Origin: Trypanosoma brucei
Lineage: Eukaryota
Direction of reading: 5' to 3'
DNA: 64,000 nucleotides
NCBI GenBank assembly: GCA_000002445.1
Contig: CP000069.1
Span: forward strand, 1,248,001-1,312,000
Both the position numbers and the translations under genes were made by a program. This document shows, one piece after another, positions 1 through 32,066 of this stretch; position 1 is the first letter of the stretch, and each line of letters opens with the position of its first letter. The notes beneath the pieces were generated by a model. The model saw nothing but the letters and a program-made list of their open reading frames with translations. It made no database searches and was not told the DNA's origin.

Positions 1-97
1 CTGAACCATACATACCCGCAAGATTTTCAGGAGCCGTAGCAAGCTCCTCGAAAAATGCAGGTGCAAACTTGTACGCTACCTCAGTTGGCGTTGGCAT
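1..97 (-). CDS. Possible N-terminal fragment of a leftward gene running off the window edge (MPTPTEVAYKFAPAFFEELATAPENLAGMYGS...)
   Basis: ATG at 97..95 on the minus strand, with an open protein-like frame to position 1. A T-rich pyrimidine tract lies on the minus strand just upstream (plus coordinates about 120-260). Only about 32 codons are visible. Confidence 0.25.
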   Translation of the reverse strand, partial: MPTPTEVAYKFAPAFFEELATAPENLAGMYGS

Positions 98-295
98 AGC
101 GAAAAAGCTTTCACTAGATAATGTAACTAAAACCTACCTTCCACAACACATGTAAAGAAAAAAAATTAAAAAAAATAAAAATAGCACTCCAGAGATTAAA
201 TACACAAACTTTACACCTTTGAAAAGTGAACGGGGGAAAAGAAAAGAAAAGAGGGATGGACAACAACCTCGCTACGTTCAATGAAGTCAAGAAGC

Positions 296-2107
296 CTAAC
301 CTGTAGAACCGCTTGTTGATACTCCCTTCAAGTCGTCACAGGGAATGTCCCATTTCCTAAACGATGCTATGCACAACGAAAGACAACGAGGGTCAACAGG
401 GGACTGTGTTGCGCGAAGCACCGCAACAAGTTGCCGTACACTCCCAATGTCGACAACGAGACAAAGCATCTTGAAAAGACGAACAGATAATCTGCTTTCG
501 ATAGAAACGCTTCTCTGCCTGTGGTACTCAACCAACATCATCGCGGTTGAAACATCCTGAGCATCAACTGCCAACTCAAGGCCACCACGAAGAAATTCCG
601 CTGTCACTTCAACACCCAAATCTACCATGTCCTCCAGAAATGTTGGTATCTTCTTCACAGCGCTTACAGCATTGGGGGAGGTTGACAGTAGTAAAGTAAA
701 CGTGCGTGCTGTCTCTCGCACAGCAACGTTTCGGAAAGTAAATAAGACCAGTGATGCCTTCTGTTCGTCTTTCATTAATGCACACGCTTCAAGCACAACA
801 TTAAGTGTTTTATGACTCACATTCCCACCCGCAGCTTTGCGCTCCTCCAACAACAACAACGACTCCTCAACCCTGGAGTCCACTTCCGCAATAAAACGCA
901 CAAGCGACATAACTGGATGTGCGTTAAGTAAAGTCAACCGCCTCGTCTCTAAGAAGAGTTTGGGTCTCGAACCTGGGATGGAGTCAGATTCCGGAATCTC
1001 ATCCTCTAATAAATACAACGCCTCCTTCAGTAACCCGGCCCGCACTAACGTCTCCAGGTGAAGGAGCGCCAGTGCAAACTTGTGCTGAGGAGGAATAATG
1101 CATGGATGAGCGCGAAGATACTTCAATACGTAATCAGCAGAAGCCACATCGCCCCATTTGGCACATTTCGCCATAAGTTTCAATGCAGTAACATCATTAT
1201 TCAGCACAGGTCCACCCTTTGCTTCCTGAAGGATCGAAGAACTTTCCTCAAAGGCATTGACACCGATATCGGCGCTGGCTTCGGCAACCTCCTGCTCGGA
1301 AGCGCCTTCCGCTGCTGCAATCAACTGGACAGCAATTGAGGGTGGTGACGCCACATTATTTGTGCTGAGCAACATATAGGGAAGAAGCAAGCGGGGAGAC
1401 ATTTTCTCACGGTCCGCAAGCCGCAGTAACTCAAAACATTCCTGAACCATAGTGACGTCGTGGTGGACACGGAGGAGAGTTTGAAAGCAATGTTGAAGGC
1501 GTATTGACAATAAGGGAAACTTTTGCTGCCAGTTCTTCCCCGATGTGATGATGCTCTTAGTATCCTCATGAATGGAAGGCCACCAGGAGGAATAGTCCTC
1601 TCCGAGTCGCGTGTATACGATGAAGAGAGAAATCTTCGTTACTACATCAGGTTCAGCACCTTTCATACGCATTGCCTCTATGGCGTTTTCAACCTCATAC
1701 TGATTGAAGGTATCACTAAGGGAAATGGCCAACAGGTATACGTTAAACAGTTCCACAGATGGGGAAGAAAGTTCCAACATGCACTGAGCAAATAAAAAGC
1801 GCAGTTCCTCAAGCTTATGAAGATCGCAAAGTATCTTCATCATGACAACCGCAAAAGGTTCTGTATCATCAAAAGAACCACAAAAACTCTGGAGCGGCTT
1901 CATATCCACCGTTGCTATGGAAGTGCCGGAGGTAACTTGTCGGTAATATGTACGAAACTCTTCAAAAACATGCCATGCGGCTGGTGGGCCCTCTCCATCC
2001 GACTGCAGCATCCTCAGAACTCGAATGTACGGATTGTCACCTGTGGAAAAAGTCAAAGAAGCACAGCTGGAAGCAGTCTTCCTAAGCACATTGAGGCGCC
2101 GAATCAT
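296..2107 (-). CDS. Conserved hypothetical protein with pentatricopeptide (PPR)-like helical repeats, probably mitochondrial (603 aa)
   Basis: True ATG start (plus 'cat' at 2105-2107). Repeated ~35-aa helical motifs such as AIEAMRMKGAEPDVVTKISLFIVYTRLGE and ALKLMAKCAKWGDVASADYVLKYLRAHP are PPR-like. N-terminus MIRRLNVLRKTASSCASL resembles a mitochondrial presequence. Confidence 0.55.
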   Translation of the reverse strand: MIRRLNVLRKTASSCASLTFSTGDNPYIRVLRMLQSDGEGPPAAWHVFEEFRTYYRQVTSGTSIATVDMKPLQSFCGSFDDTEPFAVVMMKILCDLHKLEELRFLFAQCMLELSSPSVELFNVYLLAISLSDTFNQYEVENAIEAMRMKGAEPDVVTKISLFIVYTRLGEDYSSWWPSIHEDTKSIITSGKNWQQKFPLLSIRLQHCFQTLLRVHHDVTMVQECFELLRLADREKMSPRLLLPYMLLSTNNVASPPSIAVQLIAAAEGASEQEVAEASADIGVNAFEESSSILQEAKGGPVLNNDVTALKLMAKCAKWGDVASADYVLKYLRAHPCIIPPQHKFALALLHLETLVRAGLLKEALYLLEDEIPESDSIPGSRPKLFLETRRLTLLNAHPVMSLVRFIAEVDSRVEESLLLLEERKAAGGNVSHKTLNVVLEACALMKDEQKASLVLFTFRNVAVRETARTFTLLLSTSPNAVSAVKKIPTFLEDMVDLGVEVTAEFLRGGLELAVDAQDVSTAMMLVEYHRQRSVSIESRLSVRLFKMLCLVVDIGSVRQLVAVLRATQSPVDPRCLSLCIASFRKWDIPCDDLKGVSTSGSTG

Positions 2108-2573
2108 TGGTATCAGCTCCCCTGCACTCTCACATCCTTACGTGCCGTGGGATATAACATTATTATTATGGGACCAAAAGAAGGCAGTTAACCGTCAACC
2201 ATCGGAAAATACAAAAAGTATAGATGAAAAGGTGTGTTAAAACGAGAAAGATGAAATGGGATAGGGTCTCTAAATAAAATAAGAGAAGTAAGATGAAGAA
2301 GATAACCAGAAACAGAACCACTCCAACGCCAAACACGGATGCAACAACGCTAAACACAAGAGAAAGGAAGGGGAATCGTGTCGCCACTTTAACAACCTTC
2401 CAACGTGCGGGATATAATAAACTTAATTATCATGATATTAATTTGTTAACTTAAACCGACTGATAGCAGCTAGATGGCGAATGAAAAAGACATTAGCAGG
2501 GGGAAAATCTGCCTGCGCATATAAAGACTACTTCGAAGACAAGAAACCAACCAAAAGCACAGGGCTGCTCCGT

Positions 2574-3686
2574 TCATTCCTTCGCTCCAGAAGCTGCGGA
2601 AGTCCCTACAGTGCCAACCGCACGTTTTACATAGTTTACCTTCAGAACCCAGTGACCCGGTGTATACTCGTTCACTGTACGGTGATGCGCTTCATAGTTC
2701 GGATAATACTCGGGTTCCACACCAATCGTTCCCCCACTATGGTAAGACTTCCCCACAGCACTATCAGGGTCAATAAATACAATCACAGAAAACCGTTCAG
2801 GGTCGAACACTCTCAATACTCCACAGATACACTTCGAGTAATTAAGAGCACACGTATTCGTCTCATATGATGCAAACGAACAGTGCTCCTCAGGTGTTAT
2901 GTGTATCGTTTGATACTCGCTACCACGTATCGCATTTATGCTGTAGCCACATGGCTCATACTGAAGGTCGTGAAGGATCCATGAATCATCTACAACTTCA
3001 CTGAGCCCCGTTGCCTCCCGTATCACTGCGGTTTCAGGACCCGTAGGCAACATCTTATCCGAGTACCAGTGTTTCGTTTGATTGCGATCAAGCCCATACA
3101 TGGTCATGCTGAGTTGTGCATCGTCACTGCAGCTGGGTTGAACAACATCACTGTGGAAATACAAGAAGTAGTGGTCGCTGTCAATCGGACCAAATATGAA
3201 TGGTTGTCCCGACGGAAAATGGGACCTAAGTGTCTTAAATTCTTCCGCCATCGAAAGATGCGGTCCCTTCTGCTCCCACGGGAAACTGTAGTTTTTGTGC
3301 ATGAAGGAAACCCATTCTACTTCGCCGCAAACAGTACTCACCGCCTCGCATATGAGCGGCACGCAATTCAAAAGAGTGATGGTACCACAAGTTATGAGAA
3401 TCACGCGATCTTTCATTACAAACAATGAGCTCTCCGATAACACGTAGGAGCGAATGTATTCATTAAACTCACGGGAAACAATGTGTGCACATATAGCATC
3501 AATAACTTTTTGCCACACATCGTCATCGTGTGCAAGTAAACCACTAACGTGCGTCCCGTCCACCACCCGCATTATCACCTCCAAGCGCTTCTCAGGCCCT
3601 TCGAAGCTTCGCTCGTGCTTTGGGTCAAAACGAGCGATGGAACCCCACATCGCCATGAGCGAAAGAGAGTCCTTGCAAGAGGACAT
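2574..3686 (-). CDS. AdoMetDC: S-adenosylmethionine decarboxylase proenzyme (AdoMetDC), 370 aa
   Basis: FEGPEKRLEV N-terminal signature. Intact pyruvoyl self-processing motif YVLSESSLFV. Length and overall similarity to eukaryotic AdoMetDC. ATG start verified (cat at 3684-3686). Confidence 0.93.
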   Translation of the reverse strand: MSSCKDSLSLMAMWGSIARFDPKHERSFEGPEKRLEVIMRVVDGTHVSGLLAHDDDVWQKVIDAICAHIVSREFNEYIRSYVLSESSLFVMKDRVILITCGTITLLNCVPLICEAVSTVCGEVEWVSFMHKNYSFPWEQKGPHLSMAEEFKTLRSHFPSGQPFIFGPIDSDHYFLYFHSDVVQPSCSDDAQLSMTMYGLDRNQTKHWYSDKMLPTGPETAVIREATGLSEVVDDSWILHDLQYEPCGYSINAIRGSEYQTIHITPEEHCSFASYETNTCALNYSKCICGVLRVFDPERFSVIVFIDPDSAVGKSYHSGGTIGVEPEYYPNYEAHHRTVNEYTPGHWVLKVNYVKRAVGTVGTSAASGAKE

Positions 3687-3849
3687 GACTAGTACTTCAG
3701 TCAGTGTGCGGTCAAATATAGCACCTTACGGATTAAATAACCAAACCAGACACGCACACACGCAGGCCCACAAAGGAATGGTGCGCTTCCTAAGAGTGCA
3801 AGCTCAACAAACAATGTACTTTTTGTGCTCGAGGATACGCGTACAAACT

Positions 3850-3943
3850 CCACAGAAAAAGGTCAAAAATCCGAAACGAGGGAAATAAAATATGAATAAG
3901 ATAGAATAGGGAGAAGAGAAAAGAAAGAGAAGGGAAAGGGCAG
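3850..3943 (-). promoter_or_regulatory. Polypyrimidine tract (purine-rich on plus) upstream of AdoMetDC; candidate trans-splicing signal. First downstream AG on the minus strand is near 3848.
   Basis: Plus strand reads a long A/G-only run (agaaaaaggtcaaaaatccgaaacgagggaaataaaatatgaataagatagaatagggagaagagaaaagaaagagaagggaaaggg). This is a C/T tract on the coding strand about 160-250 nt upstream of the ATG at 3686. Confidence 0.5.
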
Positions 3944-5953
3944 GTATTAGTGGTGCCTACATCACAAGTGCGAGTCGACAAAAAGGCATTTATGGAAACT
4001 TGACACACGGAGGTTGTGAAGCTCAACCAAAAATGAAGCCAAGAGAATTAATCTCTTTTGCGTCTTCCTTTAACCCTTTTGAGTTAGACTTCGCCACACA
4101 GGAGAAACCCCAGGTGATACTAATTTGGGGAGGAACGTATACATATACACATATATATTGATATGTGTAGGTATGTATACAAATATGTCTTCCTCTCCCG
4201 TCACCTCAGCTGATTATTATCCTTCACTCTCCCTTCTTTTCTCCTCTTCTATCCCTTTCAAATAGAATCAGAATGTTGGCGTTGAAACAACATGCAGAAA
4301 TGTGGAAAGATGGAAGAAACAAATGACCCATAGTCATGGGCTCCCGCCATACGCAAATACCTGGAAAGTGGGTAAGATAAACTGAGAACATATGAAAAAC
4401 AAACCGACAAAGGCAAAGGCAAAGGCGTGAGCAACTTGTTCGCTTGGAGAAATAAAATATGGCAACAACAGCAACATCACAAAACTGAGAGGAGCAGAAA
4501 CATGCTGGTAGTTCCTCACATTATCATGCGCTCTCAACGAAAGAAAAAAGGATAAATAAACGAACATGTGACCTCCCACCTTATTGACCACAAAAGTGTA
4601 AACTTCAAAATCATGTATGGAGGTCACATTTACTCTCAATCAGTTACCGTAAATCACACGCAAGTAAAAGTAACCTCAAATGCTCATTCTCATATGTCTC
4701 AATCACCCCTCACATCACCATCAGTCTCTGGTTTCCAGACTCGTATGTTACGCATATCTATCCTTAAAACACACAGACTCAGGTACATGTATTTGGCAGC
4801 GTCACCCCTCCGATATTGTATCACCTTCTCCCTTCCGATCGGCATCATTTCTCTTCTTCTAAAACGTTACTTGATTCTTTTCCTTCCAGTGCTATACCTC
4901 ATAACACATGTTAATGCACCATTTCTCCAGCCACACACGAAAGCAGAGGGAGAAAGTCGTAGATATTTTGTTACTATTATTCGATAATTCATCAACTCTA
5001 CACTTCATTTCATTCTTTTTCTTTCATATTACTCTTGATCCTCTTCCTTATACCTGCTTGAAGGTCTAATCACCTCTTTCGCTTCTGTTGTTTCAACTTC
5101 TTTTGACTTGTGCTTGTGTCGGTCTGTTGCGTTTCTCTTTATCCGTCACCTCGCTTCCTGTCGGATGACATAACTTCGGCTACTTCCTTTCAATACCACC
5201 GCTGCTTGGTATATAACCATATGATCTTCCGCCCCCAGTGATGGTAAGGAAAGGAAGTAGAAGTGAACAAGAAGGGCGAGGGGCAGGAAAAGCAATACGT
5301 AACGGCGACAAATGGTTCTTTCTTTTTTTTTCTTTTTGATAAATAAGTTTGCATGCAACAAAAACCCCGCTGCTGAAAGTCTGTTAAGGCTTTCGCTCAG
5401 TAACGTAAATTAGAGGCTCTATCCACCTTTCAAATCGCAAATACAAACGTACGGACGCGCGCGTATTCGTTTTCAAGCTCCCACCCACAAATACTCACAT
5501 CTTTGTTTCCGTTACTGTTCCGTCATTCCTGTGCCGTTGTCCATCGAATAGTTTTAAACCAGCTGTACAGTTGGACAAAAAAAGAAAAGGAAAATAGGCA
5601 TTATCAAGAGGTGCTGGTGGTGGGAACCATGAAAGCGAAACAAGGTTGGAAAAAATAGTGAAATGATACGGGGAGGAAAAAAGAAAGAACGAAAATGAAG
5701 GGGATGAGACACCACTAATTTGAACGAAGGTAAGCCACTTCACGTAACAAGCTGCTTCTCGATTTGGTTTTCTTTCCCAGCTGTTCATTAGCCTGTTCTC
5801 TTTTAATGCCTGATAGGAACTGCCGCCGCCGTCCATCTACTATCCTCAATAGCGGGTAACCACACAACTTTTTCACCCCTCCCTGCCCGCGCACCCACAA
5901 GACACATACACCATTACGGCAGCTCTTTATTATTATTACTATTAATATTACGT

Positions 5954-5989
5954 TATATATATATATATATGTATACATATATATATATA
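5954..5989. repeat. (TA)n-rich microsatellite within the AdoMetDC/prozyme spacer
   Basis: Sequence tatatatatatatatatgtatacatatatatatata. Confidence 0.9.
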
Positions 5990-7608
5990 AAGAGAAAACC
6001 AAGTCAAGTTTTAAAGAAGAAAATCAAACATAATGGGTAGGGTGTGAAAAATGCTTATTGAACTCAAAAAAATGTTAAGAAACAAGCACATAGAGTGATA
6101 TTTTGCTCCTTTATAAGACGAAAAAGAGGAAAAAAAAGGAAGCTAAACCATTAAATGAATAGATAAACCGCCACAGCAAACAGACTATTAGGCAGCACCT
6201 TTCACTTCCAGCTTTTTCGTTTTGAAAAGAAAACAGCACAGATATCACGAACTGAGACACGAAGCACCCACAGCTGTACAGCTGTACGCATCAATACAAC
6301 CCACATACTCACTCACTGACGCACACTTTGCCCACTTTCGTGCAAACCAAATCACGCTCCACTTGTTTAGTGATTATGAAACGAAACGGGGCAACGGAGA
6401 CGTCTGAAGTACCAGTGCCTTCTTCCTGTCCCCTTTTCCCCGCAACCTCAGTGCTACGAATCCCTTCCATTGGTTCCGCTGATTTTAGGGTTTTGTGGGG
6501 TAGAGTAAAGGAAAAGCAGTTGTCCCGCGTTTATTACCTAATGTATTGAACAAGGTTCGATACAGTGGTAGAATTATTTTAAAACAAAAAATTAAAAAAA
6601 AAAAGAAATGCTCAGGCAAGCAAACCAGATTTCTTTTTCTATTTTTCCTTTTTTTTCTCAAGAAGAAAAATATGAAGCGTGCGGGTACTCATCGTTCGTC
6701 GTGAGCGCCGCCATTTTAGCTGCTGTTGTATGCGCCTATCCGCCAGTTCGAGCTGCCCGTGTGTCCGTGGGCGTTGGCTACAGGAGGGAGGGGTGAATGC
6801 CCCCCGAAAAGGTTTTACCACAACCACAACATTCTCTTTTGTTGATGAACAGAACCACTGCATCAGGCGCAAGCTGGGCCTTTCAAATTAAAGTTAATTT
6901 TTTAAAAAAAGCCTACCCGCATCCACAAACGAAAACAAAAACAAAAAACACAGTCACTTACCTGCTGACACCCCTTCGCACGCGCCTAATAGAGATAATT
7001 GAAAGGCGTGTATGCGTATGAATGAAAAACACCAGAAAACAAAAAACAGGAAAATGTGTGCCTCTTGACGGCTGCTATGGAAACATGAGGAGGGGCGGGA
7101 AAGAATCACGGGGGAAGAAGCGGGTTCAGCAGTTAAAATATTTTCTTTCTTCGCACCGTTAGACACGGCCGTTTCTTTTTTATTTTTTTTTTTGAAAACA
7201 AAAGGGGCTGCCGCAAAAGTGGTGTTGAGCGCTTTTAAGGAGCAACTCAATAAACTGGCACATGAAATGACAAAAGAGGCATTAAAACTCTCGAACCTTT
7301 GACAGTGATGATACTTAATAAGCGGATGTTTAAAAAAAAAAAAGAGCCCTCCATTGCAGATAAAAACGACAAATCAACAAATATACATGAACCGATTTAC
7401 GCACAATGGAATGACTCCGTTTTACTCCTCATCTTTAAAACCGACTACCATAGAATAACTGTAGAAATTAGGGGGAGAGTATCCATATATATATATATAC
7501 TTGTATGGCACCCAAAATACCTAAAAAGCTGAGGTGTGTTTTCGCGCTGACCAGGGTGACCATTAAAAAAAAAAACCTTCAGAAGCGTTTCAGCATCTGT
7601 ACTGGAAA

Positions 7609-8586
7609 TCAGGCACTGCGTGCGTATGTGGCCTGGTGGAAGACATAGCCTCCACCAAAGTGATTAGCACCGCGGTGCACGACGGTGAAACCTTCCAATC
7701 TATCCATAACGCCGCACGCAGTTGTGCCCTGTGCGTCCCGGTCCTGCAGCAGCACGAGCAGAACTCTCTCCGGGTAAAATTTTTTGAGAAGTCCATTCAC
7801 AATTTTTGTGATATCACTCGCGGCAGACACGGCATTCGTTTCGAAGGAGGCAAAGGGATGCGTGGACCCATATGTTGACACTCGCAACGTTTCGTACTCC
7901 CCCGCGCAGTGGGATACAAGAAGTTGCTGTTCTTTGGTGTTTCCGTCCAAGTCATACTCATCATCTGCTTGTACGTTGTACATGTAAACATTGATCTGCA
8001 CATCATTTTCCCTTCGACAACTGGACGGGTCGCGATCGATGCCATCGTACACAAAGTAAAAACAGTGATCACGGTCAACAGGACCAGCTAGGTACGGGTG
8101 GCCCGTTGGGAACGCGGACTTCAACTCGGCGTATTCATGAGCCATAATATCACTCGTTTCCGATGTCATGTCCCAAGGCGAGCCGTAGTTGACCCGCATG
8201 AAAGACGCCCAATCCACAATAATGTTGTGGGAGCGCATGAGCTCAAGCATCGGGTGTACCGCTTCGTGTAGCATCACTGAAACGGAAGAGCGCACAACAA
8301 TCTGCTTTGCCGTAAACACCAAGAGGGACCTGTCGAACTTAAGCGTATGAATTCCCAGCTCAGCGGAGTTCTGACGAAGTGACTCACCGGCACGCTCCAT
8401 CACGGATGCCAGCTGTTTTACCGTAACGGTTCCTATATCAACAGGCTGTGCGAAATTGAGTTCAAACCGCTTCTCCAGGCCGCTGTCCGTGGAGGTTTTA
8501 GATTGGGTGCAACCTCCCCAACATGACACAAGGTCATGCACCGAACTTGGGCACTCGGTTTGCTGGTTAATCCGCGTGACCGACAT
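7609..8586 (-). CDS. prozyme: AdoMetDC prozyme: catalytically dead AdoMetDC paralog, 325 aa from the first ATG
   Basis: Clear paralog of the AdoMetDC at 2574-3686 (GLEKRFELNF vs FEGPEKRLEV; shared core blocks). The self-processing motif ...LSESSLFV is replaced by ...KFDRSLLVF, so the enzyme cannot form the pyruvoyl group. The track start at 8631 is TTG (plus 'caa'). The first in-frame ATG is at 8586 (MSVTRINQQ...), giving 325 aa. From memory this matches the T. brucei prozyme described by Willert et al. 2007. Confidence 0.88.
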   Translation of the reverse strand: MSVTRINQQTECPSSVHDLVSCWGGCTQSKTSTDSGLEKRFELNFAQPVDIGTVTVKQLASVMERAGESLRQNSAELGIHTLKFDRSLLVFTAKQIVVRSSVSVMLHEAVHPMLELMRSHNIIVDWASFMRVNYGSPWDMTSETSDIMAHEYAELKSAFPTGHPYLAGPVDRDHCFYFVYDGIDRDPSSCRRENDVQINVYMYNVQADDEYDLDGNTKEQQLLVSHCAGEYETLRVSTYGSTHPFASFETNAVSAASDITKIVNGLLKKFYPERVLLVLLQDRDAQGTTACGVMDRLEGFTVVHRGANHFGGGYVFHQATYARSA

Positions 8587-9254
8587 CCTTACCGTTTCCC
8601 TCTGGTGTAAAACCAGTTTGCCTCCCCTCAACTCGCCGTGCAGCAGAAGTAACGCACTTACACGTACAAATTAAAAAAATTAAAAGCAAGGGTCAAAGAA
8701 GAAAGATAAGTATTCTGCCATTAACCAAAGAACATATTAGCAGGCAAACAATCCAACAATGTGATATTTCACGATGACGCAGCAGCGAGGAAAATTTGGC
8801 TCTCTCCGTTTATGCGTTTCTGGGAAAGCTATGTGTATATTCTCAACCACATTTTTTTTAAGTTCAGGAAATTTTCATCGGGTAAAACTCTTATTGGCGC
8901 TCATCGCAGGAAACAGGTGTTGTCATTATCAGAGTCAATTGGATCAGGAATACAGGGAAGAAAGGCCTGCCCGAAACGCTAGATTTTCAGCTGTCAACAT
9001 TTTAAAAGGGGAAATTTTCACCAGTAATACAACAACAGTGTAGAAATGAATAGGAAGAAGAGAAAATATGTTATGCTGGTCCCCTGAGTAATCCTAGTCG
9101 CTCCGGTTATTAATGTCACCAGCTGTCAAACACTAAACTTACCAGACTCCCTCAGTGCCTGAAGAAGACCCGACTTCATTATACCCCATCCATTCCCCTC
9201 GTTTCCCTAAATAAATATCATGTTCTCAACTGAGGCGTTTGCATCTCCGGCGTC

Positions 9255-12182
9255 TTAGAGTAAACTCTTCATCTTTGTTAAACCCTCAGTCAGTTGTGCC
9301 TCCTGCTCAACAAGCGACTCCAGTTTAACCTTATTGGCCTCACGCACATCAGCAGGCACTTTGGTTTCATAACCTGGCATTGATATCTTCTTATTGACAC
9401 CCTCAATCTGCTTCTGGAGTCCGGCGAGCTGTTTCTCGAGCTTTGCTACCTCCTTCTGCACATCAATGAAGCCAAGCAGCATCATGTTAATGCTCAGGTC
9501 TTTGTTTACTACTGCAAAACCGCAGCCCTTCGGCACCGCAGCTGCCTCCTCTTCAGGGGGTATAACCGAGACCCTGCCCACAACACCAAGCGATTCAATC
9601 ATGAACTTGTGTGACTCGACGATTTCTCTTGTTTCGGCAGCACGAGCAGTAACCCAGACGTCTGGCTTGTGTTTGTTGGTGAGGGAGTAAAAGGCTTTCG
9701 TTGAGCGGACAATATGAACTGTTTCCATCAGCAGTTTCATCTGCTCCTCAACTTGGCTGTCTTGCCAACCAGACACCTCGGGGTAAGGGGCAACCACAAT
9801 ACTTTGGACGCCAAAGGATTCATAGTTTGGTAGATAGTGCCAAAGTTCCTCTGTGAGGAATGGCATCATCGGATGTAGCAGACGGAGGGCCACCTCTACC
9901 ACATGGAGAAGCACATCTTGCACGATCACCTTCTTCTCACCTCCCGCCTGGATGGTTGGCTTTGTCAGCTCAAGATAGACATCGCAGAGCTCATATAGCC
10001 AGAAGCGGTACACGGCGTTGGTCGCAAGTGCAAAATCGTATGTACCCTCAGAAAAACCACGGGTGCATTCCTCCACAGCCACATCAAGGCGGGAAAGGAT
10101 CCACCGGCATTCGAGTGGCAGGCTCGCTACCTTTTGAGAATTGACAAGGGTCGCCTTCGGCTTATAGTCTTCTCCTAGTGCATGATATAGCACAAAGCGC
10201 ACAGCATTCCATAGCTTGTTGCATAGTTGCCTGTAGGCAACGACGCGGTCAATATCCAGGTTAACGTTGCGTCCAGACTGAGTGTAGGAAAGGAGACCGA
10301 AACGCAGAGCATCGCTGCCACACTCCGGGATGCCATTCGGAAAGGTTTCCCTCTGCAACTTCAGAGCTCTGGAAACCTCCTTTTCGTCAAGGTTGCCCGA
10401 CCTCACTGTGTCATGAAGCGCTTCAAGAGACACGCCGCTTATAATGAAGAGCGGGTCAATCACATTTCCCTTCGATTTGCTCATCTTCTCACCGTTCTTG
10501 TCACGCACCATGGCATGCAAAAACACCTCCGAGAAGGGAAGCTTACCGGTGAAGTGGAGTGACGTCATAACCATGCGGGCAACCCAGAAGAATAGGATGT
10601 CGTGACCAGTTTCCATCAGACTTCCAGGGAAGAACCTCTGCATATCACCCGTTTCGGCCGGCCAACCCATGGTGGAGAAAGGCCACATGGCGGAGCTGAA
10701 CCATGTGTCAAGCACATCACTATCCTGCTCGAGAACCAGCTCCCTAACCTCCGCATCACTGAGATTAAACTTCTCTTTTGCCTTGGCCTTTGCCTCCTCC
10801 AAATTGCGTGCAACAACCCACGGGTCCTCGTGCGTAGATGGGACAGCACCTGTGCACTTGTATGCGGGAATGCGGTGACCCCACCACAGCTGACGTGAAA
10901 CACACCACGGTTTGATGTTCTCCAACCAATGATACCATACAACCTGATGCGTTGGTGGATACAAGCGCAGTTCATTGTTACGAACGGCCTCCACCGACTT
11001 ACGAGCCATCTCCGTGCAGTCCACGAACCATTGAGGCATCAACAGCGGCTCAACAATGTCACCGGTCCTACTGCAACGGCCAACCCGATACTCATATGGG
11101 ACCACTTCGCGTAAGAGTCCCATCTTTTCCAACTCCTTCACAATCTCACGACGGCAATCAAAGCGGTGCATCCCCTTGAAGGGGCCCTCGGTGGTGACGT
11201 GCCCCTTAAGATCCATCATCGTCAACTGCGAGAGATTGTGGCGCAGCCCCGCCTCGAAATCGTTTGGGTCATGTGCCGGTGTTATCTTCACAGCACCCGT
11301 ACCGAAGTTCACATCAACCAGAACAGGATCAAGAATTAGCGGAATCGTTTCATCGCGGAATGGGCACTTTAGCCGCTTACCGTGATACTTCTTGTACCGC
11401 TCATCATCTGGATGAACAGCGACAGCGGTATCTCCAAGAATAGTCTCCGGCCGAGTTGTTGCAATGATAATTTCGTCCTCGCTGTCGGCAAACTTGTAGG
11501 CGACGTGGGTAAGCACACCCATGTCAACCTTCCTGTCGTACCCCGGGATCGTGAGCTTCGCGTTCTTCGGAACATCCTCAAATACAACCTCAAGATCGGA
11601 AATTGCACTTTGCAGCGAACAGCACCAGTTGATGAGCCGTGTCGCCCGGTAAATGAGGCCATCTTCATGAAGCTTCACGAAGCCCTCGACCACAGCTTTG
11701 GCACATTGCTCATCCATTGTGAAACGCTCCCTGGACCAGTCCAGGCTCAATCCAATACGCCGAAGCTGACGAGTTATAACACCACAGTGGTTCTCCTTGA
11801 AGACCCACACTTGCTTCAAAAATTCCTCGCGGCCAACGTCGTGGCGCGACTTTCCACTCTCCTTCATGAGACGTTTCTCCACCACAACCTGCGTCGCAAT
11901 ACCCGCGTGGTCCGTGCCAGGAAGATACAAAGTGTCATCACCTTTCATACGGTGGAAACGGATGAGCGCATCCTGCACTGCCCCGGTTAACGCGTGTCCA
12001 ATATGCAGGTGCCCAGTAACATTAGGTGGAGGAGAGACGATAACAAATGACCGGCCGCGGATGGGACGGCCCATGTCTGACGCGGGGCGGAAGAAGCCGG
12101 ACTCCTCCCACCACTCGTACCATCCGCTCTCCACGTCCTTAGGAATGTAGGCCGGAGCCATCTGGGGAGCAAGTTGTTTCAT
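9255..12182 (-). CDS. ValRS: Valyl-tRNA synthetase (class I), 975 aa
   Basis: HIGH motif PPPNVTGHLHIGHAL. KMSKS motif KMSKSKGN. Editing-domain and anticodon-binding regions typical of ValRS, with a C-terminal coiled coil. ATG verified at 12182. Confidence 0.95.
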   Translation of the reverse strand: MKQLAPQMAPAYIPKDVESGWYEWWEESGFFRPASDMGRPIRGRSFVIVSPPPNVTGHLHIGHALTGAVQDALIRFHRMKGDDTLYLPGTDHAGIATQVVVEKRLMKESGKSRHDVGREEFLKQVWVFKENHCGVITRQLRRIGLSLDWSRERFTMDEQCAKAVVEGFVKLHEDGLIYRATRLINWCCSLQSAISDLEVVFEDVPKNAKLTIPGYDRKVDMGVLTHVAYKFADSEDEIIIATTRPETILGDTAVAVHPDDERYKKYHGKRLKCPFRDETIPLILDPVLVDVNFGTGAVKITPAHDPNDFEAGLRHNLSQLTMMDLKGHVTTEGPFKGMHRFDCRREIVKELEKMGLLREVVPYEYRVGRCSRTGDIVEPLLMPQWFVDCTEMARKSVEAVRNNELRLYPPTHQVVWYHWLENIKPWCVSRQLWWGHRIPAYKCTGAVPSTHEDPWVVARNLEEAKAKAKEKFNLSDAEVRELVLEQDSDVLDTWFSSAMWPFSTMGWPAETGDMQRFFPGSLMETGHDILFFWVARMVMTSLHFTGKLPFSEVFLHAMVRDKNGEKMSKSKGNVIDPLFIISGVSLEALHDTVRSGNLDEKEVSRALKLQRETFPNGIPECGSDALRFGLLSYTQSGRNVNLDIDRVVAYRQLCNKLWNAVRFVLYHALGEDYKPKATLVNSQKVASLPLECRWILSRLDVAVEECTRGFSEGTYDFALATNAVYRFWLYELCDVYLELTKPTIQAGGEKKVIVQDVLLHVVEVALRLLHPMMPFLTEELWHYLPNYESFGVQSIVVAPYPEVSGWQDSQVEEQMKLLMETVHIVRSTKAFYSLTNKHKPDVWVTARAAETREIVESHKFMIESLGVVGRVSVIPPEEEAAAVPKGCGFAVVNKDLSINMMLLGFIDVQKEVAKLEKQLAGLQKQIEGVNKKISMPGYETKVPADVREANKVKLESLVEQEAQLTEGLTKMKSLL

Positions 12183-13802
12183 TAGGGGGAATATACGCCG
12201 AAACGTCGTTTTCCCGTTTACCTTGCAGTTAAATGTTTCACCTCAAAAGCCTCAGTCTCCTTATGGCCGAAAATAAAAAATTCTGAAAGCTCCTTCAACT
12301 GATAAGTGGTGTAAGAAAAACAAAAAAAAAAGAAAAAACAAGGGGAAAAGCACATTCCAGCGTCAACAACAGCTGAAGCAAGTAATATTCCAACTTCTCC
12401 ATTTCGGTTAAACAACTACAAATTTGTGTGGCATGAAAGCTGACCGCCTTTCTATTTCCTCACTCTCGCCTAATAAGAGCAGCAGCACTGGTTCCGCGCC
12501 AGCGCCAAGATGAAAAGAAAAAAAATCGTAATAGGGCAAAGAAAGTAGAAAAGGGAAATAATAGGGCATCACCCGTTACCGGCGATGTCGCACTCTACCC
12601 CACACTCGACACAATACACAAAAGAAAAAGAAAAGAAAAGTACCACAAACTGATGACTTCATCAAAAACATCACATATTGTCCTTTCCCCTCCCCTCGGT
12701 TGCCACGACAACGGAAGAAGAGCTTTTCTACTAACACATGTAACACCCGCACACATACACGTAAACGTACTTGAGCACGGGAAAAGATAAAAAAGACAGG
12801 GAAGAAATGAAATGAATCAGACAAATGCCACAGGATGTGACACTCGCCGATTCTCTGTTTTACGATCCCTCTTCGACGCATTTCTTCCCCATCCGCTTGC
12901 CTTCTATGCACTTAACCCGCCAGAACTCAAGAATAATGTACGACTGGAGCTAGCAATATTTGAAAAAGAAAAACAAGAAAAATAAATAGAAATTGGAAAC
13001 GCCCCTACTTTTCGCATTTTGTTTTATTTGCGTAATGATTCTCAACGAAACAACCCACTTCGTAAAGTCAAATAAAAATATATCAAGGAAGATCCGATCC
13101 CATGAAAATAAAAATAACTAAATAAACAGTGAAGGAAAAAAAGCCTCTTTCTTTTCTGCTGCTTCGACATCGTTAAGGTAGTGATGGGGTTTGGGAAAAA
13201 GAAAAAGTGGAGAAAGAAAAGACCATGGTCACCCGAAAGAAGCAACGGAGATTTGCGCGCATAGAAAAAAAAACTTCTCGCAACATCACTGCGTTTGGAA
13301 TTACTTCGACCAGGCAGCTCCCTACATCCGGCCCCTCTAATTGGGCTTCTACTCATCACAGTCTTGTTGTTCCACAAACCCTTTCAGGATTGCGATCGGA
13401 GCCGCTCATCGCTTTAAAAACTGCTCCTGAAGCGCAATTTCTGTTGTTGTTGTTGTTGGCTTCGTTTACATTTGTATTTACCTTGTATGATATTTGTTCT
13501 ATCCACCAAACTTCACCGGTTGCCTAGACGCATGTTGGCTGCGACGATAAGAACGCAACAGAGGAGATAAAGAAAGTTTAAAAAAAAAAGAAAACGATCA
13601 CGAAGCCACACGAACCCCTAGAACCTAACCCCCACCAACGTTTTTAACTGCTGCTGCTTCTTAAAGGCACCAAGCAGTCACGCATCATCTGTGACGGGTT
13701 GAAAGTGGCACCCTCCCTCCCAAGAAATGAAGACGCGCCTAACAAGCCGGGTATGAAGGTTCAAACTCTTCTCTTGTGCCTCATCTACTAACCTCAGGTG
13801 AG

Positions 13803-28791: not shown

Positions 28792-29155
28792 CTTCTTCCT
28801 TTCTAACGTTCATACACATGTGAATACGTTGACGCCATTTATTGTCGTTTCAGTGGCAGGTAAACAAAAAAAAAACATTGTAAAAGGGTCAGCACGTATA
28901 TACTTACGTATGACAGACCTTACACAACTATGAATATATATTCCGTGTAGGGGAACCTCCACATACACACAAAAACAACAGCTGATGTAAAAAGGGGTGT
29001 CAACTTTCTAAAGAACAAAACTTCTATCTCCTGTTAAGGATACAGATTCACTACAATAGGTCACCTCCACAATCACTTCCGCTATTTTCCTTCACCAAAC
29101 TTACTTTCCCACACCTCCATAACATATGAACTTGTCTCGACTTTTTAAAAAAAAA

Positions 29156-29581
29156 TCAGTACGACTCCTTTGTGTGAATGTGTCGCAGCCACTCCGCGTC
29201 CAATACGCTGCCACCCCACTCAATATAATGATTATCCATTGGATAGTGCATTGTATAGTCCAAAAAGGGCTTTTCTCCATACTCGCCATAGTAATTCGCA
29301 GCTACCCACTTTGGTATACCAAATGGAAATATAAAGTAACAGGGGAAAAACCACATGAGGAGTCGACGAAGCATCTCCCAAGTGGTTTCATACTTCCGGG
29401 TGTCGCGGTCAATCCATAGTTCCTGACGCCCCCAACCCCAGAACATCCAGAAATTCATCTGGTACTGGGGGAAAACAGAAGTATTAGGTGCTTCACGTGC
29501 GTAGTTAAATGGATACTTGGCTCCCTTCGACATTTCGAATTCTTGATAACGGTATGATAGTCTTCTACATAATCTCAGCAT
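29156..29581 (-). CDS. Small conserved protein, possibly a mitochondrial membrane protein (141 aa from the first ATG)
   Basis: The track start at 29605 is GTG. The first ATG is at 29581 (MLRLCRRLSYRY..., presequence-like). One hydrophobic Trp/Phe-rich segment (NFWMFWGWG, MWFFPCYFIFPF). Confidence 0.45.
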   Translation of the reverse strand: MLRLCRRLSYRYQEFEMSKGAKYPFNYAREAPNTSVFPQYQMNFWMFWGWGRQELWIDRDTRKYETTWEMLRRLLMWFFPCYFIFPFGIPKWVAANYYGEYGEKPFLDYTMHYPMDNHYIEWGGSVLDAEWLRHIHTKESY

Positions 29582-29882
29582 TTTCCAAGATCCTACGTCT
29601 ACCACCCCTGGATTGGCAGGGAAAAGAAAGGTTACCTAGTGCGAAAAAATTGAAATAAAATCGGTGATAATAATACATATTGTTACGTAAGCTCCGCACC
29701 TGGTTAACACATTGGAACACTTCTGCCAACACTGCCTCACACATTAAGGAACCTTCGGCGCAGACGTGCAAGAAGTGGAAAATATCTTCATTTTTAACTA
29801 CAAATAAGAAATAGGTTCAACAAGTGAACAAAAAAACGAGCCTGTCACGATGACGAAGTTTTCGTGGAAGAAAAATAAATTT

Positions 29883-30167
29883 TCAACTATCTTCATCAAC
29901 CCCAAAAATACCTTCCCCCAGTTTCCACCAGGCTAGGGTATAAAACATGTGAAGATCATGATGTTTCTCAGCTTCATTCAAGTCGCTCCAGTTGTCACCC
30001 GTAATCGGCCAGTGATACATTGATCTATAAGTTGAAAAATACCACGGGATGTTTTGGTCTAATTTCTTTACGAATGCCGGTTCCTTCATGCCGTGGGGAA
30101 ATTCACCCCGTGTTGTTAACTCTAGATCGGCATACTTCATCCTGAAAAGGATGCTCCGTCGAAGCAT
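29883..30167 (-). CDS. Small hypothetical protein (about 94 aa from the first in-frame ATG); first ORF of the leftward array
   Basis: The track start at 30206 is GTG. First internal Met is MLRRSILFRMKYADL. Aromatic-rich (WYFSTYRSMYHWP). Weakly supported. Confidence 0.35.
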   Translation of the reverse strand: MLRRSILFRMKYADLELTTRGEFPHGMKEPAFVKKLDQNIPWYFSTYRSMYHWPITGDNWSDLNEAEKHHDLHMFYTLAWWKLGEGIFGVDEDS

Positions 30168-31025
30168 GTTTCCACCTTCTACCAACGGCAGCAGGGACAC
30201 TAACACTGAAAAGAAATAACACCAATGTTATAGCACACTGTGCAGAAGCCTACAGAAACGATATGCGAAACCTGCAGTATCTACACTTGAGCAACCACAA
30301 GATCCTAACAAAGCAGAGGAAAGCGGAATAAACAATGAACAAAAATGAAGGAGTATATAACAAACGCTAAAAATTTTTAAATTCAAACAGCAAACAAAAC
30401 AGAACCCTGTACAGCAACCTTTCAAAAGCTAAAAATACTACAAACACACAGAGGTATACAACGAAAAATATGCAACTTCGTATCCTCCCGAACATAGGGG
30501 TCACAGTGCAGTCCAGAAGAAAAAAAGTGTCATAACCATTTCAACGAAAAAACGAAAATATACCCACCCAATCCGGAACAAAGAACTACAAAAATATGAT
30601 ATTTTTATTTTACAAAAGGCCAAACCGACCACGCTAACGTACAAAAAGACGCCTCTAAACATCCTAAATAAGTGTTTATTATCCAAATATTTCCCGAAAG
30701 ACGCGGTGCGCTATTGATTCTTAGCAGCAACCCCAACCACAAATATGCAAATCCCACCACAGTTACAACAAGTACTGAAACGTTCACATAAAGTATAATA
30801 AAATTGTGATGTGGTGAAAGCAGACAACCGGTCGCCAGATATAATAACTTATCCCCCACAACAGCACCTACACTGACGCTTATATATAATAACCCTCGTG
30901 CAGGAGGGAACGAAAGGAGGTGTAGGTGATCAAATAAATAAAACCAATAACGACAGCAACAGTTAATATTGAATAGCATTGAGTCAGGACCAGTAGTACA
31001 CAGAACGGCAAACATATGCATATGC

Positions 31026-31047
31026 ATATATATATATATATATATAT
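31026..31047. repeat. (TA)11 microsatellite flanked by catatgcatatg
   Basis: Sequence atatatatatatatatatatat. Confidence 0.9.
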
Positions 31048-32054
31048 CTTTAAAAAACATAGTAAACATTGCCATTCGGTGACACAAACCGTGATCCCGC
31101 TTCTGCCCCTCAATCGCAAACCCACCATCCGTCAAATTCAGCTAAATCCACACAGGTACACAGACACAGGGAACGAAAAGAGCAATTCAAGTGGAGGACC
31201 CTCGGATGTAAGGTCCAACCGACTCATCTTCCGCCCACCCGCTACCACATCACACTCACCACTATGCCAGCACTCCTCCCCAACAACTTTAATGCAAGCC
31301 TGAAAGAAGCGCAGCTGTGGAGCACGGCAGGCAGGACCCCTCAGCAGTGGCCGACAACAACAACCACCACCACCGCATTTTAAGAACTTCAGGATATAGA
31401 ATCCCGAGGGAAATACCGTCGTACGCTGTTTGGTTCATGAGAAAATCGAAGTTCCCGACTCACGGTCACATTCACGGAGGCGAAGAAATCATCAATCGAA
31501 GGTCGGCCCAGGCACTGCCCGCTACCGGGAATACGAAGCAGCAAACAGGGGAGCCACATACAAAGGAAACAGGTGTCATAAACGGGTGACGTCTCAGGCC
31601 GCCGCCGACCCTGGCAACAGCATGGCAAACCCAACCGCGCGGCCAAGGAAACTTTTTTCCGCTGACGGGCAGAACGCCTGCAGTGGAGAAAGGGCGTATA
31701 AGCGAGACGAAGAGGTAGCTCCACAAATAGCGGAAGGGTGCGGACAATGTGAACGAATTAATACGAGCGGGCCGCCTGCCGCGCTACAGCGAAATCCATC
31801 CCTAGAACAGGCGAATTTACTCCTTCGCTACGGGACGCGGAGACCCCAGACTTGGAGGGTGTGGGTGAGTAAAGTTGATGGAAATATAATGAAACCCCTT
31901 AGTGGGAGGAGGATAAGGGCTAAGCATGGTAAAATCTCCAAGGAGTAGGGTCATGGAGGCCGTAGTTTGCCTTTGGAAGAGGAGAATAACCGGGAATTTG
32001 TGGTATCCAGACCAACCCACCAACACGGCTGGTCCCAGTGGTCGCAGCGGGCTG

Positions 32055-32066
32055 CCCCCCCCCCCC
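32055..32066 (-). promoter_or_regulatory. C12 on plus (G12 on the leftward-transcribed strand); candidate directional element of the leftward pol II start region
   Basis: Exact run of 12 C in gctgccccccccccccgtgg. G-runs on the transcribed strand are the recurrent motif reported at trypanosome divergent strand-switch regions (Siegel et al. 2009; Kolev et al. 2010). Confidence 0.5.

What the first reader, a model, noticed from the sequence alone, without database searches (positions are those of the whole stretch)
2574..8586. AdoMetDC and its dead-enzyme paralog (prozyme) encoded as neighbouring genes on the same strand
The ORF at 2574-3686 is a canonical AdoMetDC with an intact YVLSESSLFV autoprocessing site. 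The ORF at 7609-8586 is a clear paralog in which that site is degenerate (KFDRSLLVF), as are other core blocks. This is the kinetoplastid pseudoenzyme-activator arrangement: the dead paralog heterodimerises with AdoMetDC and strongly activates it. It is a known target-validation locus in T. brucei. The first in-frame ATG gives exactly 325 aa, which fits my recollection of the prozyme length.
Basis: partly seen in the sequence, partly recalled or inferred. Interest (0 to 1): 0.55.

Follow-up and report, generated by a model that had tools for sequence, protein, structure and literature searches.

The report
Trypanosoma brucei AdoMetDC and prozyme genes
These are the well-studied sleeping-sickness parasite genes for the polyamine enzyme AdoMetDC and its catalytically dead activator "prozyme", so the finding is correct but already known; the gap between the two genes also holds a conserved folded RNA region that may control prozyme production.

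Summary
Both ORFs lie on the minus strand. ORF 2574-3686 (370 aa) is 100% identical to the crystallised T. brucei AdoMetDC beta and alpha chains. ORF 7609-8586 (325 aa from the first ATG) is 100% identical over its full length to the "inactive AdoMetDC prozyme" chain of PDB 5TVF/5TVM/6BM7. The two are paralogs (25% identity, E 3e-22). Prozyme has lost E8, E67, C82, S229, H243 and E247 (human numbering) and a ~37-column segment. Sixteen orthologues share these losses. The order ValRS, prozyme, AdoMetDC on one strand holds in every kinetoplastid locus I fetched. The interpretation (a pseudoenzyme that activates AdoMetDC) is established literature, so the finding is already known.

One thing goes beyond the finding. 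The first 1.9 kb of the 3.9-kb spacer downstream of prozyme contains the only non-coding sequence conserved between T. brucei and six other Trypanosoma species in this ~17-kb syntenic region. The conserved blocks pair with one another. They form a ~40-bp long-range duplex with 14 compensatory pairs and a closing helix, and single-sequence folds recover the duplex in all six species folded. This is a concrete candidate for the unresolved 3'UTR element through which dcAdoMet and AdoMetDC repress prozyme translation. I could not check whether Xiao et al. 2013 already described it.

The parts
2574..3686 (-). AdoMetDC proenzyme gene (370 aa; the prozyme-proximal amd copy, Tb927.6.4460 by position). 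The autoprocessing site is E85/S86. Catalytic residues C100, S249, H262, E266, E29 and E32 are present.
   Evidence: It is 100% identical to PDB 5tvf_A (residues 1-85) and 5tvf_B (residues 87-370). Pfam PF01536 scores 315.9 bits. Residue table. Gene IDs are from PMC2562514.
7609..8586 (-). Prozyme gene (325 aa, TGA stop): a catalytically dead AdoMetDC paralog and allosteric activator (Tb927.6.4470).
   Evidence: It is 100% identical over residues 1-325 to PDB 5tvf_E. Pfam PF01536 scores 49 bits. Catalytic residues are lost. The 978-nt CDS with TGA stop matches PMC2562514.
8587..8631 (-). Mechanical upstream extension of the prozyme ORF to a TTG codon. It is not part of the protein.
   Evidence: The crystallised protein starts at the ATG at 8586. 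A polypyrimidine tract followed by AG lies just upstream.
3687..7608 (-). Gene-free spacer of 3922 nt between the prozyme stop and the AdoMetDC start. It holds the prozyme 3' flank/UTR and the AdoMetDC 5' flank.
   Evidence: Spacers of 2.9-5.3 kb with no annotated protein family occupy the same position in eight other trypanosomatid loci; in two of them the gene caller placed a short, unannotated ORF (113 and 124 aa) inside.
172..4929 (-). Segment that is duplicated in the two-amd-copy assembly GCA_003543875.1. It carries the 603-aa gene, amd and 1.24 kb of amd 5' flank. The second copy itself lies outside the window.
   Evidence: blastn of window 1-13000 against L001/L002. The gene order amd, 603 aa, GHMP kinase, TRM10, amd, 603 aa comes. 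'Two identical amd genes' is stated in PMC6221367.
7204..7275 (-). Conserved non-coding block A. It includes GCCAGUUU (7259-7252) and a local hairpin (7248-7227).
   Evidence: 80-83% identity to six other Trypanosoma species, E down to 5e-19. Alignment. Coordinates.
7109..7134 (-). Conserved block A2 (AACUGCUGAACCCGCUUCUUCCCCCG). It is the 5' strand of the closing helix with block D, and its C-run is complementary to the G-run of block B.
   Evidence: A compensatory Phytomonas variant GCUA/UAGC was seen by eye.
6750..6806 (-). Conserved block B. It comprises a G-run (6806-6800) and the 5' strand of the long-range B-C duplex (6797-6750).
   Evidence: helices 6-8: 41 pairs, 14 with changes on both sides. 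The duplex is recovered in the MFE folds.
6742..6749 (-). GAACUGGC, an invariant octamer complementary to GCCAGUU(C/U) of block A. It is a possible pseudoknot helix and is tentative.
   Evidence: helix 1: 100% paired, but seven of eight pairs never vary, so this is uninformative.
5872..5925 (-). Conserved block C, the 3' strand of the long-range B-C duplex. It lies about 870 nt downstream of B in T. brucei.
5751..5761 (-). Conserved block D core (CGAGAAGCAGC), the 3' strand of the A2-D closing helix.
   Evidence: helices 3-4. A2-D pairs appear in the MFE of 5 of 6 species.
9255..12182 (-). Valyl-tRNA synthetase gene (975 aa), the conserved upstream neighbour of prozyme.
   Evidence: Pfam tRNA-synt_1, Anticodon_1 and Val_tRNA-synt_C are recorded on the syntenic genes.

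Best explanation
The window comes from Trypanosoma brucei (or a member of its very close species complex), chromosome 6. ORF 2574-3686 (minus strand) encodes the pyruvoyl-dependent enzyme S-adenosylmethionine decarboxylase. This enzyme cleaves itself between E85 and S86 into beta and alpha chains. On its own it is nearly inactive, because its N-terminal residues S27-G30 block the active site. ORF 7609-8586 (minus strand) encodes prozyme, a paralog that arose by an old tandem duplication. Prozyme has lost the processing context and the catalytic residues. It forms a heterodimer with AdoMetDC, and dimerisation displaces the autoinhibitory peptide (cis-to-trans isomerisation of P31, docking of helix h1 into the interface) and raises catalytic efficiency about 1000-fold. 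The identity of both proteins, the paralogy, the residue losses and the conserved gene order are shown here. The heterodimerisation, the activation mechanism, the essentiality, and the translational repression of prozyme by dcAdoMet plus AdoMetDC protein acting through the prozyme 3'UTR are taken from the literature on these same sequences. A further point is inferred here: the regulatory 3'UTR element is probably the conserved, long-range base-paired RNA domain at window 5751-7275 (minus strand).
For: The AdoMetDC product is 100% identical to PDB 5TVF/5TVM/6BM7 chains A and B, and the prozyme product is 100% identical to chain E. Paralogy is supported at E 3e-22, and both products pass the Pfam PF01536 threshold. 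In AdoMetDC the equivalents of human E8, E11, E67, S68, C82, S229, H243 and E247 are intact. In prozyme they read S35, E38, R86, S87, S101, deleted, R235 and Y239. All 16 orthologues retrieved show H243 replaced by Arg and the same deletion of about 37 alignment columns; Cys82 is lost in all but P0017, and Glu67 in all, with the P0018 register uncertain. The order ValRS, prozyme, AdoMetDC on one strand is found in T. cruzi, T. vivax, T. rangeli, T. grayi, T. conorhini, T. theileri, L. donovani, Phytomonas and two unnamed kinetoplastid-like contigs. The mechanism is described in Volkov 2016, the gene IDs and CDS length in Willert & Phillips 2008, and the regulation in Patel 2018.
Against: There is nothing substantive against it. 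At the DNA level the window is 98.9-99.96% identical to the three related assemblies retrieved but 100% identical to none, so the strain is not identified. T. brucei prozyme keeps a Ser at the column of the pyruvoyl-forming Ser, so 'dead' rests on the loss of the other residues and on published biochemistry, not on that position. Heterodimerisation and activation cannot be tested in silico here. Assigning the conserved RNA domain to prozyme regulation is an inference.
Confidence: 0.97

Rival explanations
1. The 7609-8586 ORF is a decaying pseudogene copy of AdoMetDC with no function of its own.
For: It scores only 49 bits against PF01536, compared with 315.9 bits for AdoMetDC, and lacks the catalytic residues.
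Against: The ORF is intact and has a conserved length (317-334 aa) in named Trypanosoma, Leishmania and Phytomonas species. Many columns are invariant, and the same substitutions are fixed across lineages, for example H243 to Arg in 16 of 16. The protein was crystallised as a heterodimer with AdoMetDC. The title of PMC2562514 calls it an 'essential allosteric activator'.
Confidence: 0.01
2. The 7609-8586 product is a second, divergent but catalytically competent AdoMetDC isozyme.
For: It keeps a Ser (S87) in the column of the pyruvoyl precursor. E11, E15, D174 and E256 (human numbering) are conserved.
Against: E67 is Arg, C82 is Ser, H243 is Arg and E247 is Tyr. The segment carrying F223, C226 and S229 is deleted. 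Volkov 2016 states that prozyme lacks key residues, is not processed, and is missing Y243, helices h9-h11 and strand beta10.
Confidence: 0.01
3. On the conserved spacer blocks only: they are an independent non-coding RNA gene, or a DNA-level inverted repeat, that happens to sit between prozyme and AdoMetDC. They are not a cis-regulatory part of the prozyme mRNA.
For: No tool here shows where the prozyme mRNA ends. The domain begins about 330 nt after the stop codon, and polypyrimidine tracts that could direct processing lie before and inside it. The B and C strands amount to an imperfect inverted repeat.
Against: There is no Rfam match at the gathering threshold or at relaxed E-values. G.U pairs outnumber A.C mismatches 59 to 12, and sense-strand folds are more stable than antisense folds, which favours an RNA on the prozyme strand over a DNA element. 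The domain lies outside the amd duplication unit. Published work places a translational control element and a 'putative secondary structure' in the 3'UTR of the longest prozyme transcript.
Confidence: 0.2

Closest known systems
T. brucei AdoMetDC/prozyme heterodimer (Tb927.6.4460/4410 and Tb927.6.4470; PDB 5TVF, 5TVM, 5TVO, 6BM7)
   Same: It is the same thing. Both protein sequences are identical over their full length. The CDS length and stop codon match, and the neighbours match (ValRS upstream, amd downstream).
   Different: Nothing differs at the protein level. The window DNA is about 99% identical, not 100%, to the three assemblies I could retrieve. Only one of the two amd copies falls inside the window.
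Human and other eukaryotic AdoMetDC homodimers (e.g. PDB 1JL0, 1MSV, 1I7B)
   Same: They share the PF01536 fold, the YVLSES self-cleavage site and the catalytic Cys, His, Ser and Glu residues with the 2574-3686 product.
   Different: The human enzyme is an active homodimer stimulated by putrescine. The trypanosome enzyme has an extra N-terminal segment of about 20 residues, is autoinhibited as a monomer, and needs the dead paralog. Human K80 and E178, two putrescine-site residues by my recollection, are I98 and S193 in the T. brucei enzyme.
Other T. brucei enzyme-prozyme pairs (deoxyhypusine synthase DHSc/DHSp; PRMT1 ENZ/PRO)
   Same: They follow the same logic: a catalytically dead paralog oligomerises with a weak enzyme and activates it by orders of magnitude (PMC3663545 and bioRxiv 10.1101/776112, listed).
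   Different: The protein families and oligomeric states are unrelated (heterotetramers). I did not examine whether those pairs are adjacent genes.
Bacterial SAM/SAH riboswitches, and the dcAdoMet 'riboswitch-like' hypothesis for the prozyme 3'UTR
   Same: Patel 2018 hypothesises that a structure in the prozyme 3'UTR senses dcAdoMet. The conserved, covarying RNA domain found here sits in that flank.
   Different: The domain matches no Rfam family, SAM classes included. It lies in a 3' flank, spans about 1.5 kb with a non-conserved insert of 350-1000 nt, and ligand binding is untested. Published data also require AdoMetDC protein for repression.

Membership tests
Eukaryotic AdoMetDC (Pfam PF01536, pyruvoyl-dependent), ORF 2574-3686 | Significant full-length match to the family profile | tested here: met
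   315.9 bits against a cut-off of 22.2, covering profile positions 2-342 of 343. E 6.6e-34 to the human proenzyme 1msv_A.
Eukaryotic AdoMetDC (Pfam PF01536, pyruvoyl-dependent), ORF 2574-3686 | Self-cleavage site Glu-Ser inside YVLSES, yielding beta and alpha chains | tested here: met
   YVLSE85/S86S is present. The identical protein occurs in the PDB as a beta chain of residues 1-85 and an alpha chain starting at residue 86. Pvl86 is described in PMC5201418.
Eukaryotic AdoMetDC (Pfam PF01536, pyruvoyl-dependent), ORF 2574-3686 | Catalytic and processing residues equivalent to human E8, E11, C82, S229, H243 and E247 | tested here: met
   E29, E32, C100, S249, H262 and E266 are all present.
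Trypanosomatid AdoMetDC prozyme, ORF 7609-8586 | Recognisable paralog of AdoMetDC | tested here: met
   BLASTP E 3e-22 at 25% identity. PF01536 scores 49 bits, above the 22.2 cut-off.
Trypanosomatid AdoMetDC prozyme, ORF 7609-8586 | Loss of the processing motif and catalytic residues | tested here: met
   E8 to S35, E67 to R86, C82 to S101, H243 to R235, E247 to Y239, with S229, C226 and F223 deleted. S68 is retained as S87. Nearly all of the 16 orthologues show the same pattern (one keeps Cys82).
Trypanosomatid AdoMetDC prozyme, ORF 7609-8586 | Deletion of the segment forming helices h9-h11 and strand beta10 | tested here: met
   A gap of about 37 alignment columns relative to AdoMetDC is present in all prozyme orthologues. 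The structural description is in PMC5201418.
Trypanosomatid AdoMetDC prozyme, ORF 7609-8586 | Kinetoplastid-restricted, and syntenic between ValRS and AdoMetDC | tested here: met
   All named hits are Trypanosoma, Leishmania or Phytomonas. The synteny is found in 12 loci. 'Only found in the trypanosomatids' is stated.
Trypanosomatid AdoMetDC prozyme, ORF 7609-8586 | Forms a heterodimer with AdoMetDC and activates it about 1000-fold | not testable with these tools
   This is taken from the literature for the identical sequence. The heterodimer crystal structures are 5TVF, 5TVM and 6BM7, and the mechanism is in PMC5201418.
Known riboswitch or other Rfam family (conserved spacer domain 5751-7275) | Match to a curated covariance model | tested here: not met
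   The whole window gives 0 hits at the gathering threshold. The relaxed scan of 5600-7650 has a best E of 0.19, in an A/T-rich stretch outside the conserved blocks.
Known riboswitch or other Rfam family (conserved spacer domain 5751-7275) | Direct, specific ligand (dcAdoMet) binding that changes the fold | not testable with these tools
   This needs in-line probing, ITC or SHAPE with dcAdoMet.

The most novel reading that the evidence does not exclude
The spacer inside the finding carries an RNA domain of about 1.5 kb (window 5751-7275, minus strand) that is conserved across the genus Trypanosoma and partly in Phytomonas. It consists of five sequence blocks held together by a long-range duplex of about 40 bp (B-C, 14 compensatory pairs) and a closing helix (A2-D). 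The novel reading is that this domain is the still-undefined cis element through which dcAdoMet and AdoMetDC protein repress prozyme translation. It could act as a structured platform for a protein sensor or, less probably, as a eukaryotic 3'UTR riboswitch for dcAdoMet. A further requirement of this reading is that the architecture has not been described before. Only a 'putative secondary structure' in the longest transcript is mentioned in the papers I could read, and Xiao et al. 2013 could not be opened.
Probability: 0.3. Interest if true: 0.6.

Novelty: already known. Interest (0 to 1): 0.3.

Why it matters
The gene pair is a textbook case of a pseudoenzyme acting as an allosteric activator, and it is a validated drug target in African trypanosomes. 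Finding it again adds nothing new.

The possible value lies in the spacer. How the parasite senses dcAdoMet and adjusts prozyme translation is stated to be an open question (Patel 2018; Clayton 2019 supplementary Note 42). The conserved blocks and the covarying long-range helices mapped here give precise nucleotides to mutate and compensate. They also give short, defined RNA pieces to test for binding of dcAdoMet or of AdoMetDC.

Tried and rejected
- **Second amd or prozyme copy in the window.** tblastn finds none. The second amd copy reported in the literature lies beyond the left edge of the window.
- **Hidden protein gene in the spacer.** tblastn with six-frame peptides hits the conserved blocks in several frames and on both strands. 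Block A carries 1-nt indels between species. The conservation is therefore at the nucleotide level, not coding.
- **Known RNA family.** Rfam gives nothing at the gathering threshold or at relaxed E-values.
- **Sliding-window fold z-scores of the T. brucei spacer alone.** These were unremarkable (mean z -0.42). They missed the domain because its helices are long-range, so single-species local folding was the wrong tool.
- **Three-sequence alignment.** It aligned human H243 to a His in prozyme. The 18-sequence alignment shows that H243 corresponds to a conserved Arg, so I rejected the earlier placement.
- **nhmmer profiles of blocks A, A2 and B.** They found only weak collinear matches in Phytomonas (E about 0.08) and none in L. 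donovani or in the two divergent contigs. I do not claim conservation beyond Trypanosoma plus partial Phytomonas.
- **An A-C helix (ACACCACU/AGUGGUGU).** It is broken in T. vivax and T. conorhini, so I dropped it.
- **First mini-alignment (A5).** T. brucei was one base out of register, so I discarded it in favour of A6. A full-length structure string on A4 failed because of a length error.
- **Papers that could not be read.** Willert 2007 (PMC1895940) and Xiao 2013 (PMC3771639) are not held.


Full report
**1. Observation.**
The ORF list shows two ORFs on the minus strand at the stated coordinates.
- ORF 2574..3686 is 370 aa, starts at ATG and contains RSYVLSESSLFVMKD.
- ORF 7609..8631 is 340 aa from a TTG. 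Its first ATG, at 8586, gives 325 aa and contains HTLKFDRSLLVFTAKQ.
- The two products are paralogs. BLASTP gives 25% identity over 286 aa, E 3e-22.
- Both exceed the Pfam PF01536 gathering score of 22.2 bits: 315.9 bits for the first and 49.0 bits for the second.
- tblastn finds no other copy of either gene in the 64-kb window.

The only details missing from the finding are that both genes are on the minus strand, and that prozyme is therefore the upstream gene in the direction of transcription.

**2. Identity.**
- The 370-aa product is 100% identical to the beta chain (residues 1-85) and the alpha chain (residues 87-370) of T. brucei AdoMetDC in PDB 5TVF/5TVM/6BM7. The chain break falls exactly at the E85/S86 self-cleavage site.
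- The 325-aa product is 100% identical over residues 1-325 to chain 5tvf_E, "Inactive S-adenosylmethionine decarboxylase prozyme".
- Willert & Phillips 2008 describe the prozyme CDS as 978 nt ending in TGA. They give the gene IDs as amd Tb927.6.4460/Tb927.6.4410 and prozyme Tb927.6.4470 (PMC2562514). The window has 8586-7609 = 978 nt ending in TGA.
- The upstream neighbour at 9255-12182 is a 975-aa valyl-tRNA synthetase.

**3. Residue check.**
I aligned human AdoMetDC, the two window proteins and 15 prozyme orthologues.

| Human residue | AdoMetDC (2574-3686) | Prozyme (7609-8586) |
|---|---|---|
| E8 | E29 | S35 |
| E11 | E32 | E38 (kept) |
| E67 | E85 | R86 |
| S68 | S86 | S87 (kept) |
| C82 | C100 | S101 |
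| F223 / C226 / S229 | Y243 / C246 / S249 | deleted, about 37 alignment columns |
| H243 | H262 | R235 |
| E247 | E266 | Y239 |

- Volkov 2016 describes Y243, the equivalent of human F223, as a ligand-binding residue.
- Every prozyme orthologue has Arg at the H243 column and the same deletion.
- The column of the pyruvoyl-forming Ser varies among orthologues (S, T, C or G).
- An earlier three-sequence alignment misplaced H243, and I rejected it.

**4. Mechanism.**
The mechanism comes from the literature on these same sequences.
- Monomeric TbAdoMetDC is autoinhibited. Residues S27-G30 occupy the active site, held there by a cis G30-P31 peptide bond.
- Heterodimerisation with prozyme buries an interface of 3,200 square angstroms and triggers cis-to-trans isomerisation of P31. 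[quoted passage not shown] Activation is about 1000-fold (PMC5201418).
- Prozyme is regulated at the level of translation. Loss of AdoMetDC protein, or depletion of dcAdoMet, raises prozyme levels. A 3'UTR "putative secondary structure" in the longest transcript was proposed as riboswitch-like, and the sensor is still unknown (PMC6221367; PMC6597758 main text and supplementary Note 42).

**5. Context in other genomes.**
- An exact-sequence look-up found the two proteins in three related assemblies. Window 1-13000 is 98.9-99.96% identical to them and 100% identical to none, so the strain is not identified.
- In GCA_003543875.1 there are two amd copies 9,891 bp apart, in the order amd, 603 aa, GHMP kinase, TRM10, amd, 603 aa. 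In GCA_000210295.1 there is one. From memory, not from a tool, these accessions are T. b. brucei Lister 427 and T. b. gambiense DAL972.
- The duplicated unit corresponds to window ~172-4929. The window therefore holds the prozyme-proximal amd copy, and the first ~170 nt continue into the two-copy arrangement.
- One search with prozyme returned 18 proteins. The named ones are Trypanosoma, Leishmania or Phytomonas.
- The order ValRS, prozyme, AdoMetDC, then a protein of about 600 aa, all on one strand, holds in T. cruzi, T. vivax, T. rangeli, T. grayi, T. conorhini, T. theileri and Phytomonas EM1; the L. donovani locus shows ValRS, prozyme and AdoMetDC but ends before any further gene. The ValRS, prozyme-like, AdoMetDC core also holds in two unnamed, more divergent contigs.
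- The tandem arrangement is therefore ancient, as expected for a tandem duplication.

**6. The spacer: what I found beyond the finding.**

*Size and conservation.*
- The prozyme-AdoMetDC spacer is long in all named trypanosomatids (2.9-5.3 kb; 3,922 nt here). Most neighbouring gaps in the same loci are about 0.3-0.7 kb, though a few reach about 2 kb. The spacer is short (865 and 1,608 nt) in the two divergent contigs.
- Prozyme protein is only about 50% identical between T. brucei and T. cruzi or T. vivax. Even so, blastn of the spacers finds collinear non-coding blocks within the first 1.9 kb after the prozyme stop:
  - block A: 80-83% identity over about 75-95 nt, E down to 5e-19
  - block A2
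  - block B: 91-97% identity over its 3' core
  - block C
  - block D: 96% identity over 25 nt
- With the small CDSs accounted for, these are the only collinear non-coding matches in the ~17-kb syntenic region.
- They are not coding. Hits occur in several frames and on both strands, and block A has 1-nt indels between species.
- They match no Rfam family.

*Base pairing between blocks.*
- The blocks are mutually complementary. RNAalifold on a mini-alignment of the blocks from seven species (A6) gives -96.3 kcal/mol and 87 pairs, 18 of which have changes on both sides.
- I tested a cleaned 82-pair model.

| Measure | Observed | Control |
|---|---|---|
| Cells forming a standard pair | 94.8% | 40-52% with the 3' partner slid by 1-3 columns |
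| Pairs with a compensatory change | 17 | 9.6 ± 2.0 in shuffles (0 of 500 reach 17) |
| Covariation score | 0.237 | 0.168 in shuffles (0 of 500 reach it) |

- The support is concentrated in the long-range B-C duplex, where 33 variable-region pairs include 14 compensatory ones, alongside the invariant GGCAGCUC/GAGCUGCC.
- The following helices pair in all species but hardly vary, so the Trypanosoma set says little about them:
  - the A2-D closing helix
  - the A2 C-run with the B G-run
  - the possible A-B pseudoknot (GCCAGUUC/GAACUGGC)
- By eye, Phytomonas changes A2-D from GCCG/CGGC to GCUA/UAGC.

*Independent checks.*
- I folded each species' natural A2-to-D sequence (855-1,794 nt) on its own. 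The B-C duplex (39-42 pairs) appears in the MFE in all six species folded, and A2-D (10-15 pairs) in five of six.
- The T. brucei stretch 5860-6815 (minus strand) folds with z = -5.59, and B-C closes both the MFE and the centroid structure. T. vivax gives z = -2.89.
- G.U cells outnumber A.C cells 59 to 12, and sense folds are more stable than antisense folds. This favours an RNA on the prozyme strand.
- The domain lies outside the amd duplication unit, so it belongs with prozyme and not with amd.

*Caveats.*
- Only seven species were compared.
- The model was derived from the same alignment it was tested on.
- The linker-joined mini-alignment omits the variable inserts.
- Transcript ends were not available.

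**7. Verdict.**
The finding is correct and fully explained by existing knowledge, so its novelty is "already known". The conserved, covarying RNA domain in the prozyme 3' flank is a well-supported structural observation. It is a plausible candidate for the undefined translational control element. Its function and its novelty relative to Xiao et al. 2013 remain unverified.

Noticed in passing
window 5751-7275 (minus strand): blocks A 7275-7204, A2 7134-7109, B 6806-6742, C 5925-5872, D 5761-5751: Five non-coding blocks in the prozyme 3' flank are conserved in seven Trypanosoma species, and partly in Phytomonas. They base-pair with one another over long range. The B-C duplex is about 40 bp and has 14 compensatory pairs, and A2-D forms a closing helix. 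There is no Rfam match.
   Followed up: yes
window ~6852-6845 and ~5788-5781 (minus strand): A possible extra helix 'E' was seen by eye. T. brucei has CUGUUCAU/AUGAACAG where most other Trypanosoma species have GUACCU/AGGUAC at the equivalent places. The register shifts between species. It would cross the helix between the A2 C-run and the B G-run.
   Followed up: partly
window ~172-177 and ~4929; loci L001/L002 against L003: These are the boundaries of the segmental duplication that gives T. b. brucei its two identical amd genes. The unit carries the 603-aa gene, amd and 1.24 kb of 5' flank. One related assembly has a single copy and a 1111-aa kinesin gene where the two-copy assembly has a 341-aa ORF.
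   Followed up: partly
loci L008-L017 compared with L018 and L020: The prozyme-AdoMetDC spacer is 2.9-5.3 kb in all named trypanosomatids. It is only 865 and 1,608 nt in two divergent, unnamed kinetoplastid-like contigs, which keep the ValRS, prozyme-like, AdoMetDC order but have none of the conserved blocks.
   Followed up: partly
proteins P0017 and P0018 (alignment A2): These are two distant prozyme-like proteins from unnamed sources. P0017 keeps a Cys at the human C82 column. P0018 keeps an LSES-like motif near the processing site. They could represent intermediate stages of catalytic decay.
   Followed up: no
window ~28,800-37,600: ORFs of at least 220 aa are all on the minus strand to the left of this gap and all on the plus strand to the right, and the GC skew changes sign near 32 kb. 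This looks like a divergent strand-switch region between two polycistronic units. Rfam reports no tRNA or other RNA gene there.
   Followed up: no
window 296-2107 (minus strand): A 603-aa ORF lies downstream of amd. It has syntenic counterparts of 580-626 aa in most of the loci fetched, and up to 722 aa in one divergent contig. It has no confident Pfam family (only a faint TPR_24). It is co-duplicated with amd in T. b. brucei.
   Followed up: no
window 5180-5260; also 5945-5990, 4140-4175 and 7475-7492: A 25-nt inverted repeat (84% complementary, local fold z about -3.5) and several (TA)n or (TG)n microsatellites lie in the spacer. None of them is conserved in other species.
   Followed up: no
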